Positions 43,813 through 44,063 of a DNA stretch of 64,000 bases are shown in pieces. A model generated the notes under the pieces. That model did not search any database. It was not told the DNA's origin and saw only the letters and a program-made list of their open reading frames with translations. The number at the start of each line of letters is the position of its first letter. The stretch's first letter is position 1. Source of the DNA: a virus; the UHGV virus genome UHGV-1343746; one strand, 5' to 3'. Made by a program: the position numbers and the translations under genes.

Positions 43813-44007
43813 ATTAAATCATCTTTGCAGTAACCTACGCAAACCTTGCTAAAGGGTTTGTAGAGTCATCTCTTATAAGCTAATCTAGAATCATGCTCAA
43901 GAGACTCTTCGGCACTCATGGGACGACTGGTTAGCTCCATAAGTCACTGCAAAGAGGATTACCAGACCGTATTTATCTTAAGTGCTCCCATTACACCAAC
44001 ACGCCGT

Positions 44008-44031
44008 AACGTGTGAAGGAATCGAACCTTC
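44008..44031 (-). pseudogene. isolated tRNA T-arm-like hairpin (tRNA fragment or mimic)
   Basis: GAAGG-TTCGATT-CCTTC on minus strand without a matching 5' acceptor strand or anticodon arm. Confidence 0.35.
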
Positions 44032-44063
44032 GCCTTTTCTTTACCAGAGAAATAGATTGTTTA

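What the first reader, a model, noticed from the sequence alone, without database searches (positions are those of the whole stretch)
43813..44035. Structured non-tRNA element plus orphan T-arm hairpin inside the tRNA cluster: candidate tRNA-like or Y-RNA-like ncRNA
Between tRNA-Lys(UUU) and the next tRNA there is no cloverleaf, but a 10-bp long-range helix (TCTTTGCAGT at 43822-43831 pairing ACTGCAAAGA at 43937-43946) encloses about 105 nt with internal hairpins, and 60 nt away sits a perfect isolated T-arm hairpin (44008-44031) with no matching acceptor or anticodon arm. A terminal stem plus a tRNA-like module is the architecture of bacterial Y RNAs, and a vWA protein with possible Ro60-like layout is encoded 1.5 kb away.
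Basis: inference. Interest (0 to 1): 0.6.

Follow-up and report, generated by a model that had tools for sequence, protein, structure and literature searches.

The report
Phage Y-like RNA with tRNA mimic
The "orphan T-arm" belongs to a circularly permuted tRNA look-alike set inside a small stem-plus-motif RNA that recurs beside a Ro60-like protein gene in very diverse phages, which makes it the likely missing RNA partner of that anti-defence protein.

Summary
The window is a Felix O1-like phage (Ounavirinae). All 26 tRNAs and this element lie on the minus strand. The T-arm is not orphan. At 44083-43960(-) a 7-bp closing stem encloses: motif UUACAGCAA, an anticodon-like hairpin, the T-arm, a closed 7-bp acceptor-like stem, U8, and a D-arm. 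This is the layout of bacterial YrlA Y RNAs.

Across 18 phage sequences (protein identity down to ~38%), 97% of pair cells are paired, against ~40% in slid registers. 20 of 24 pairs show changes on both sides. The Levitt 15:48 tertiary pair covaries.

One arm was misplaced by 9 nt.

Verdict: a new variant of the Ro60/Y-RNA system. Protein binding and function are inferred, not shown.

The parts
45517..46932 (-). Ro60-like protein gene (471 aa; DUF2828 + DUF7788/vWA with an invariant MIDAS motif)
45379..45408 (-). Sigma-70-like promoter (TTGACA-18-TATAGT, with TG) between the Ro60-like gene and tRNA-Pro; probable start of the tRNA/module transcript
   Evidence: Consensus scan, 11 of 12 matches. 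A consensus match only.
45113..45179 (-). Short module M1: AGGCCAA-UUACAGCAA-A/U-rich loop-UUGGUCU-GGUC, between tRNA-Glu and tRNA-Met
   Evidence: R1 25.6 bits. Regex map. RF01414 19.7 bits.
44952..45016 (-). Short module M2: AGACCGU-UUACAGCAA-loop-ACGGUCU-GGUA, between tRNA-Met and tRNA-Asn
   Evidence: R1 37.0 bits, E=1.7e-4.. RF01414 24.9 bits, E=0.047.
44100..44171 (-). Short module M3: AGACCAA-AUACAGCAA-loop-UUGGUCU-GGUU; shares a 25-nt direct repeat with M4
   Evidence: Direct repeat D1. Regex map. Not reported by R1 at E<1.
43960..44083 (-). Module M4, the finding proper: closing stem plus motif frame carrying a circularly permuted tRNA-like domain
   Evidence: R1 78.4 bits (seed member). 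MFE fold gives the same five helices. Covariation. Coordinates.
44077..44083 (-). P1 5' strand, AGACCGU
   Evidence: Pairs with 43970-43964. P1 is 98.4% paired and all 7 pairs covary across 18 sequences. Ascertainment-free test: 38% vs 1.5-4.6%.
44068..44076 (-). Conserved unpaired motif UUACAGCAA
   Evidence: C, G and C are invariant across 18 sequences. Logo from 264 modules. Identical to nt 3-11 of the Class I RNA motif.
44036..44052 (-). V / anticodon-like hairpin UUUCU-CUGGUAA-AGAAA
   Evidence: Not conserved in the family: loop of 3-7 nt, or no hairpin at all.
44015..44031 (-).
43999..44014 (-). Closed acceptor-like stem: ACACGUU-AC-GGCGUGU
   Evidence: 7 bp in all 18 sequences with unrelated sequences; 99.2% paired; all 7 pairs covary.
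43982..43998 (-). U8-G9 and D-arm GUGU-AAUGGGA-GCAC
   Evidence: U8 is present in 18 of 18. D-stem 93% paired.
43964..43970 (-). P1 3' strand ACGGUCU, followed by tail GGUA (43963-43960)
43817..43959 (-).
   Evidence: Inverted repeat I1. z=-5.8. Alifold: 36 pairs, 6 compensatory. R2 finds it only in the window among the 76 sources searched.

Best explanation
The element at 44083-43960(-) is a phage Y-like RNA of the YrlA type. A 7-bp terminal stem followed by the unpaired motif UUACAGCAA forms a frame. Inserted in that frame is a circularly permuted tRNA mimic: V hairpin, T-arm, acceptor stem closed by a loop, then D-arm, able to form the tRNA elbow.

It is one of four frame-sharing modules in this tRNA cluster. 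These are probably co-transcribed with the tRNAs from the promoter just after the Ro60-like gene. They would be released when RNase P and 3' processing enzymes cut out the flanking tRNAs.

Inferred mechanism: the Ro60-like protein (45517-46932) binds the conserved stem-plus-motif frame, as Ro60 binds the Y RNA stem. The tRNA-like domain then recruits or distracts a tRNA-recognising factor, such as a processing or repair enzyme, an exoribonuclease or a host defence nuclease.

Shown: the structure, its conservation and covariation, the Ro60 fold of the protein, and the genomic linkage. Inferred: transcription and processing, protein binding, and the effector.
For: Anatomy read from the sequence and reproduced by the MFE fold.

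Covariation over 18 sequences from phages whose protein is 38-100% identical: 97.2% of cells paired vs 38-44% in slid registers; 20 of 24 pairs changed on both sides; score 0.996 vs 0.12-0.16; 0 of 500 shuffles reach it. P1 and the Levitt pair were not part of the search descriptor. P1 is 98.4% paired. Levitt 15:48 reads C:G 7, U:A 7, other 4.

Ascertainment-free test: 38% of motif occurrences on the gene strand have a perfect 7-bp partner, against 1.5-4.6% for control 7-mers and 2% on the other strand.

Model R1: all 147 hits at E<1 lie on the gene's strand. New full-length members lie beside the gene in loci outside the seed.

Linkage: module density is 1.2 per kb within 500 nt of the gene vs ~0.1 per kb beyond; 48 of 75 distant loci have one within 1 kb. 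Reciprocal search: 28 of 28 same strand, median distance 322 nt.

Named examples: Mycobacterium phage Faith1 has short, tRNA-like (52.8 bits) and short modules in the gap right after its Ro-like gene. Campylobacter NCTC12673 and Listeria LP-048 have modules directly upstream of theirs.

Protein: Ro60 fold.

Precedent: YrlA has the same V-T-AS-D order and lies within 4 kb of Ro60 on the same strand (PMC4201824). The Bxz1 control shows the same modular logic. A phage Ro60 binds phage Y-like RNAs and host PNPase (PMC12135203). The Bas63 ortholog gp130 is Ro60-like and counters the Ppl defence system, with its RNA partner unidentified (PMC11482910).
Against: No expression or binding data exist. 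The fold energy of M4 is no better than shuffles (z = -0.39). The canonical Ro-binding motif GNCGAAN0-1G is absent, and RF02553 does not hit the window element at E<=10. The protein is not detectably TROVE by sequence: no Pfam hit, and Ro60 appears only at E 0.4-2 in a profile search. Pairing in T, AS and D was required by the descriptor that found the distant members, so those counts are partly ascertained. Many modules lie far from the gene and among tRNAs, so a protein-independent role is possible. The window copy's own 15:48 pair is A.C.
Confidence: 0.65

Rival explanations
1. Functionless debris: a decayed tRNA, or the junction of two tandem tRNA copies (the T-arm and 3' acceptor strand of one, the 5' acceptor strand and D-arm of the next).
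For: It lies in a tRNA cluster. Rfam tRNA scores 28.8, just under the cut-off of 29. Un-permuting gives tRNA-Thr(GGU). Five of 18 closed-stem loops read N-CCA, as expected from an origin in tandem tRNAs. Chen et al. warn that dimeric tRNAs mimic this pattern.
Against: The two acceptor strands keep pairing through wholesale sequence change. The outer stem, the motif and the Levitt pair are conserved across phages of four bacterial phyla. No relative has an intact tRNA here. Junctions between ARAGORN-called tRNAs were excluded.
Confidence: 0.04
2. A working permuted or split tRNA. RNase P cuts in the acceptor loop, a CCA end is made, and the two-piece or religated molecule is aminoacylated and decodes (Thr, GGU), or acts like a two-piece tmRNA.
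For: The window copy un-permutes to a full cloverleaf with U33 and A37. There is a 7-bp acceptor stem. N-CCA occurs in 5 of 18 loops. M. smegmatis YrlA is cleaved by RNase P and gains CCA. ARAGORN calls a permuted 'tmRNA*' in phage Mordin.
Against: The anticodon-like arm is not conserved. Felix O1 has a 6-nt loop, Mordin a 5-nt loop, and 11 of 18 members give no tRNA call when un-permuted. The window's acceptor loop is only 2 nt and has no CCA. The ends are locked into a conserved outer stem with a conserved motif that a tRNA would not need.
Confidence: 0.08
3. An element of the tRNA operon that works without the Ro60-like protein. For example, a processing or punctuation signal, or a tRNA decoy that soaks up host anticodon nucleases or other tRNA-directed defences.
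For: 62% of 401 modules have a tRNA within 300 nt, and 248 of 250 of those are co-oriented with it. Many copies lie in stretches without the gene. The tRNA mimic is an obvious decoy shape.
Against: Modules are ~10-fold denser within 500 nt of the gene than elsewhere in the same tRNA-rich flanks. In Faith1 the three modules abut the gene with no annotated tRNA within 5 kb on either side. The conserved frame is shared by modules that have no tRNA-like part.
Confidence: 0.18

Closest known systems
YrlA bacterial and phage Y RNAs (Rfam RF02553; Chen et al. 2014, PMC4201824)
   Same: A terminal stem encloses V stem-loop, T-arm, acceptor-like stem closed by a loop, and D-arm. The tRNA tertiary signature is present, including 15:48 covariation. 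It is encoded on the same strand within a few kb of a Ro60-fold protein, and tRNA-less sister modules (YrlB-like) lie alongside. RF02553 aligns some family members with the same topology at 21.7-38.9 bits.
   Different: There is no GNCGAAN0-1G motif; UUACAGCAA sits in its place. The partner protein belongs to the DUF2828 clade, not Pfam TROVE. RF02553 is far below its gathering score of 69 and does not report the window copy at all. The element is embedded in a phage tRNA cluster, and the window copy keeps a full anticodon-like arm.
Dictyostelid Class I RNAs (Rfam RF01414; Kjellin et al. 2021, PMC7919456)
   Same: The frame and the short modules match feature by feature. They are ~60 nt (61.5 vs 59.5) and A/U-rich (loop 0.72 vs 0.70). 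Both have a 6-7-bp terminal stem conserved in structure only. The unpaired motif UUACAGCAA follows the 5' stem strand directly. The ends are (A/U)AG...CUG(U), with an A-rich tract before the 3' strand.
   Different: RF01414 scores are 17.5-29.1, below its gathering score of 41.5. One nucleotide fewer lies between the stem and UUACAGCAA. The phage versions have no DUSE promoter. The known Class I binder is the RRM protein Rnp1A. Class I RNAs were reported as unique to Dictyostelia. Homology versus convergence is untested.
Thermus phage phiLo Ro60 with Yrl1/Yrl2 (PMC12135203; PDB 9KOP, 9L5Y)
   Different: phiLo uses a canonical TROVE protein and CGAA-motif stem-bulge RNAs. No tRNA-like domain is reported for them.
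Circularly permuted tRNA genes (Cyanidioschyzon merolae type; from my own knowledge)
   Same: The 3' half is encoded upstream of the 5' half, with the acceptor strands joined by a short linker.
   Different: Those genes are processed into normal decoding tRNAs through a circular intermediate made by the eukaryotic/archaeal splicing endonuclease. Here the anticodon arm is not conserved and the break is held open by a conserved outer stem.

Membership tests
YrlA (RF02553) | Terminal stem enclosing V, T-arm, closed acceptor-like stem and D-arm, in that order | tested here: met
   The same order is seen in the Bxz1 positive control.
YrlA (RF02553) | tRNA tertiary signature: U8, A14, G18G19, T-loop UUCRA, and covarying Levitt 15:48 | tested here: met
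   U8 in 18 of 18. Levitt pair C:G 7, U:A 7, other 4. A14, GG and the T-loop were required by the descriptor. The window copy itself has A15.C48.
YrlA (RF02553) | Encoded within ~4 kb of a Ro60 ortholog, on the same strand | tested here: met
   M4 starts 1.4 kb downstream of the gene's stop codon on the same strand. Family-wide linkage. The protein is Ro60-like by fold only.
YrlA (RF02553) | GNCGAAN0-1G motif on the 5' strand of the Ro-binding stem | tested here: not met
   UUACAGCAA occupies that position. A GCCGAAG inside module C is not conserved in relatives, which have GCCGAUG.
YrlA (RF02553) | Rfam gathering score (69 bits) | tested here: not met
   No RF02553 hit on the window element at E<=10. 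Relatives score 21.7-38.9 bits. Bxz1 YrlA itself scores only 32.5.
YrlA (RF02553) | Bound by Ro60; carries tRNA-type modifications; recognised by tRNA enzymes | not testable with these tools
   Needs RIP or EMSA, modification mapping and RNase P assays.
Dictyostelid Class I RNA (RF01414) | Short terminal stem conserved in structure, not sequence | tested here: met
   P1 covariation. 312 of 341 modules have 7 of 7 Watson-Crick pairs with many different sequences.
Dictyostelid Class I RNA (RF01414) | Unpaired 11-nt motif CCUUACAGCAA next to the 5' stem strand | tested here: met
   UUACAGCAA (9 of 11 nt) in M1, M2 and M4, and AUACAGCAA in M3. Logos. One nucleotide shorter spacing than in Dictyostelium.
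Dictyostelid Class I RNA (RF01414) | About 60 nt, GC 32-41%, ends AAG...CUGU | tested here: met
   Short modules have median length 59-62 nt and GC 0.38, start (U/A)AG, and end CU-GU in most cases. M4 is 124 nt because of its insert; the long DdR-66 and DdR-67 also carry inserts.
Dictyostelid Class I RNA (RF01414) | Rfam gathering score (41.5 bits) | tested here: not met
   17.5, 19.7 and 24.9 bits in the window; 29.1 in L073.
Dictyostelid Class I RNA (RF01414) | DUSE promoter, dictyostelid host, Rnp1A binding | not testable with these tools
   A phage context has no eukaryotic promoter. Protein binding needs experiments.
Canonical tRNA (RF00005) | Contiguous cloverleaf reaching the curated score | tested here: not met
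   ARAGORN finds none. Rfam gives 28.8 against 29, using a poor upstream 5' half with two acceptor mismatches and a 2-bp D-stem.
Ro60 / TROVE (protein 45517-46932) | Helical-repeat ring plus C-terminal vWA domain with MIDAS | tested here: met
Ro60 / TROVE (protein 45517-46932) | Sequence-level match to the TROVE family | tested here: not met
   Pfam gives only DUF2828 and DUF7788. In a profile search against PDB sequences, Ro60 appears only at E 0.4-2.2.
Permuted tRNA gene | A conserved, functional anticodon arm after un-permuting | tested here: not met
   11 of 18 members give no tRNA call. The loop varies from 3 to 7 nt or the hairpin is absent.

The most novel reading that the evidence does not exclude
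The phage stem-plus-UUACAGCAA modules and the Class I RNAs of Dictyostelium are one RNA class. Its conserved frame is the binding site of the DUF2828 branch of Ro60-like proteins, a Pfam family that (from my own knowledge) spans eukaryotes and viruses. Class I RNAs have a poorly understood mechanism and were thought unique to social amoebae. On this reading they would be the 'Y RNAs' of a second Ro60 lineage, and phages would have fused a tRNA mimic into the same frame.
Probability: 0.3. Interest if true: 0.9.

Novelty: new variant of a known kind. Interest (0 to 1): 0.78.

Why it matters
The Ro60-like protein occurs in at least 705 cultured phage genomes from many lineages and in thousands of metagenomic sequences. 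In the Felixounavirus Bas63 it counters the Ppl defence system, and its authors could only guess that some annotated tRNAs might be its Y RNAs.

This work points to specific, unannotated RNAs with a defined binding frame. That makes the RNP directly testable by pull-down, by compensatory mutants and by RNA deletion.

It extends Y RNA/tRNA mimicry to a second Ro60-like clade with a different recognition motif. It links that clade to tRNA clusters and, in Listeria phages, to RtcB-type RNA-repair genes.

The unexpected match to Dictyostelium Class I RNAs offers a concrete molecular hypothesis for an RNA class whose mechanism is unknown. On the practical side, it flags spurious annotations, such as the 131-nt 'tRNA-Thr' and a permuted 'tmRNA'.

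Tried and rejected
- **Fold energy of M4:** not better than shuffles (z = -0.39), so thermodynamics gives no support for M4, though it does for module C.
- **MAFFT on untrimmed modules:** it slipped the P1 register, so I built a segment-anchored alignment instead.
- **Relaxed descriptor:** too noisy (20 hits in shuffles). I kept only high-scoring hits and excluded tRNA-tRNA junctions.
- **G.U versus A.C test for RNA-level selection on P1:** inconclusive (8 vs 4, p = 0.39), because P1 is nearly always Watson-Crick.
- **GCCGAAG in module C as a canonical Ro motif:** rejected, because relatives have GCCGAUG.
- **Module C beyond Ounavirinae:** none found.
- **REP5's 131-nt tRNA-Thr and ARAGORN's permuted tmRNA in Mordin:** both are artefacts of the permuted tRNA-like core.
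- **Sources I could not reach:** Avesson 2011 and the Chen 2014 supplements are not held. So the other Class I-binding proteins, and the list of 22 phages with YrlA, could not be checked.
- **R1 on the Bxz1 Ro locus:** no hit. The two frames are distinct.

Full report
**Context.** The window is 99.8% identical over this region to Shigella phage KPS64 (Ounavirinae, Mooglevirus). About 250 Felix O1-like phages match it. ARAGORN finds 26 tRNAs, all on the minus strand, covering every amino acid except Trp. It finds none in the 424-nt spacer between tRNA-Asp (44237-44312) and tRNA-Lys (43737-43812). So the finding has to be read on the minus strand.

**Checking the observation.** The second, ACTGCAAAGA, lies at 43946-43955, not 43937-43946. 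A perfect 10-mer inverted repeat is only marginal here (18 of 300 shuffles). However, the helix extends to 21-28 bp, and the region folds far better than shuffles (z = -5.8; -5.0 in phage REP5).

The T-arm is real (44031-44015) but not isolated. Rfam's tRNA model scores 28.8 bits, against a cut-off of 29, at 44007-44081(-). That hit uses a good anticodon-like arm and T-arm but a poor 5' half.

**What is really there.** Immediately 3' of the T-arm the minus strand reads ACACGUU-AC-GGCGUGU-UG-GUGU-AAUGGGA-GCAC. That is a 3' acceptor strand, a 2-nt loop, a matching 5' acceptor strand, U8-G9 and a D-arm. The whole is enclosed by AGACCGU (44083-44077) pairing with ACGGUCU (43970-43964). RNAfold recovers exactly this five-helix layout, although the energy is unremarkable (z = -0.39). 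It is a circularly permuted tRNA-like domain with a closed acceptor stem. Swapping the halves back yields a 74-nt sequence that ARAGORN calls tRNA-Thr(GGU).

**Comparative evidence.** Within Ounavirinae the closed stem keeps pairing while its sequence changes entirely:

| Phage | 3' strand | 5' strand |
|---|---|---|
| Window | ACACGUU | GGCGUGU |
| Felix O1 | ACUCGGC | GUCGAGU |
| Mordin | ACCCUUC | GAAGGGU |

The anticodon-like loop, by contrast, is 7, 6 or 5 nt. No relative has an intact tRNA at this site. REP5's annotated 131-nt 'tRNA-Thr' is an intron-allowing artefact.

I fetched 80 IMG/VR loci around homologs of the neighbouring protein. An explicit descriptor (T-arm, closed 7-bp stem, two nucleotides, D-arm) gave no hits in shuffles and none on the opposite strand. 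It gave about 15 good hits that are not tRNA-tRNA junctions.

All of these hits proved to be enclosed by a 7-bp stem. A UUYCAGCAA-type motif follows the stem on the 5' side, and G(U/A)U follows it on the 3' side. Neither feature was part of the descriptor.

On a curated 18-sequence alignment:
- 97.2% of pair cells are paired, against 38-44% in slid registers.
- 20 of 24 pairs show changes on both sides.
- The covariation score is 0.996, against 0.12-0.16 in slid registers, and 0 of 500 shuffles reach it.
- The outer stem is 98.4% paired, with all seven pairs covarying.
- The Levitt 15:48 tertiary pair reads C:G in 7 sequences, U:A in 7 and other in 4.

An ascertainment-free test confirms the outer stem. 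38% of NUNCAGCAA occurrences on the gene strand have a perfect 7-bp partner, against 1.5-4.6% for control 7-mers and 2% on the other strand.

**A modular family.** A covariance model (R1) found 147 hits at E<1, every one on the protein gene's strand. It found new full-length members beside the gene in loci outside the seed. It also found many 50-70-nt hits that have the stem and motif but no tRNA-like core.

The window holds four modules: M1 (45179-45113), M2 (45016-44952), M3 (44171-44100) and the tRNA-like M4. In the 75 distant loci, module density is 1.2 per kb within 500 nt of the gene and about 0.1 per kb beyond. 48 of the 75 loci have a module within 1 kb.

Starting from the RNA motif alone, 28 of 120 stretches contained the gene, all on the same strand, at a median distance of 322 nt. 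Other copies are dispersed, and some of those lie on contigs known to encode the gene. Of 401 modules, 62% lie within 300 nt of a tRNA, and 248 of those 250 are co-oriented with it.

Named examples:
- Mycobacterium phage Faith1 has short, tRNA-like (52.8 bits) and short modules in the unannotated gap after its 'RNA-binding protein' gene.
- Campylobacter phage NCTC12673 and Listeria phage LP-048 have modules just upstream of theirs.
- In LP-048 the gene also neighbours RtcB-like and RNA-ligase genes.

Sequence methods do not see the relationship. The MIDAS residues are invariant. Homologs occur in 705 cultured phage records.

**Comparison with known systems.** Chen et al. 2014 define YrlA as a stem enclosing V, T, a closed acceptor-like stem and D. 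It shows 15:48 covariation and lies within 4 kb of Ro60 on the same strand. The element meets those features.

It lacks the GNCGAAN0-1G motif, and RF02553 does not report it. Relatives reach 21.7-38.9 bits against a cut-off of 69. The positive control, Bxz1 YrlA, scores 32.5 bits. It sits among three tandem stem modules of its own motif type.

PhageMaP reported that the Bas63 ortholog gp130 is Ro60-like and counters the Ppl system, and it speculated that some annotated tRNAs might be Y RNAs. No RNA partner has been described for this clade. I therefore file the element as working like a YrlA-type Y RNA, but not as a member of the curated family.

**Unexpected resemblance.** Rfam's Dictyostelium Class I RNA model aligns to the frame of M4 (17.5 bits), M2 (24.9) and M1 (19.7), and to a module in L073 (29.1). 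All are below its cut-off of 41.5.

Published Class I features match the phage short modules point by point:
- about 60 nt and A/U-rich
- a 6-bp terminal stem conserved only in structure
- the unpaired motif CCUUACAGCAA beside the 5' stem strand
- ends AAG...CUGU

Class I RNAs were reported to be unique to Dictyostelia. Whether Dictyostelium has a DUF2828 protein could not be tested here.

**Module C.** It is conserved in length, with compensatory changes between two Ounavirinae sequence types. It was not found in the 75 distant loci. Its function is unknown. A helix of more than 20 bp would suit RNase III processing, and one inner loop (CUUUAGCAA) echoes the module motif.

**Mechanism and confidence.** Shown: the permuted tRNA-like structure, its conservation, the Ro60 fold, and the RNA-gene linkage. 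Inferred: co-transcription with the tRNAs from the promoter-like site at 45408-45379, release by tRNA processing, binding of the frame by the Ro60-like protein, and recruitment or distraction of a tRNA-recognising factor by the mimic.

The rivals are less likely but not excluded: tRNA debris, a working permuted tRNA, and a protein-independent operon element or decoy.

Noticed in passing
window 44319-44747 (-): A 142-aa HNH homing-endonuclease ORF (PHROG 23251, E=6e-68) is inserted between tRNA-Tyr and tRNA-Asp. The closest relative, KPS64, lacks it; there the two tRNAs are 6 nt apart.
   Followed up: partly
window 40186-45351 (-): The 26-tRNA cluster covers 19 amino acids. Trp is the only one with no tRNA.
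   Followed up: no
window 43853-43833 (-), inside module C: The hairpin CAAACC-CUUUAGCAA-GGUUUG (CAGAC-CUUAAGCAA-GUCUG in Felix-type phages) has a covarying stem. Its loop resembles the UUACAGCAA module motif, and the Class I variant DdR-57 has CUUUAAGCAA.
   Followed up: partly
window 44236-44172 (-): Two further hairpins follow tRNA-Asp directly: GAGAGGGCUUUUUAGCCCCUC, and an arm pair at 44213-44176 (82% complementary). They may be processing or terminator elements.
   Followed up: no
L215 (Listeria phage LP-048) 4953-11455: The Ro60-like gene sits between a tRNA cluster and genes annotated as RtcB-like tRNA-splicing ligase, RNA ligase, metal-dependent phosphohydrolase and tRNA amidotransferase. 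This neighbourhood echoes the bacterial rsr-yrlBA-rtcBA operon.
   Followed up: partly
L092 (Mycobacterium phage Bxz1) 9761-10245: Upstream of the canonical Ro60 gene gp220 lie three tandem stem modules sharing GGCCGA...GUCGGUUA motifs. Only the middle one carries the tRNA-like core. This is the same modular logic as in the DUF2828 clade, with a different motif.
   Followed up: partly
L096 1694-1736 and L164 4973-5034: Two giant-virus metagenome contigs (GVMAG) contain exact matches to the module pattern. No DUF2828 gene was found in the stretches held. They could be chance, or a bridge to eukaryotic hosts.
   Followed up: no
L004 (Citrobacter phage Mordin) 730-1479; L002 (REP5) 699-829: ARAGORN calls a permuted 'tmRNA*' in Mordin, and the REP5 record annotates a 131-nt tRNA-Thr(GGT). 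Both appear to be triggered by the permuted tRNA-like core and are probably mis-annotations.
   Followed up: yes
L073 8800-9042: A group I intron (Rfam RF00028, 59 bits, above the gathering score) lies in a tRNA-rich metagenomic phage contig that also carries several modules.
   Followed up: no
Kjellin supplement 19 (DdR-66, DdR-67): Two long Dictyostelium Class I RNAs (about 105 and 141 nt) carry structured inserts within the same stem-plus-motif frame. This parallels the phage modules that carry T-arm or full tRNA-like inserts.
   Followed up: no
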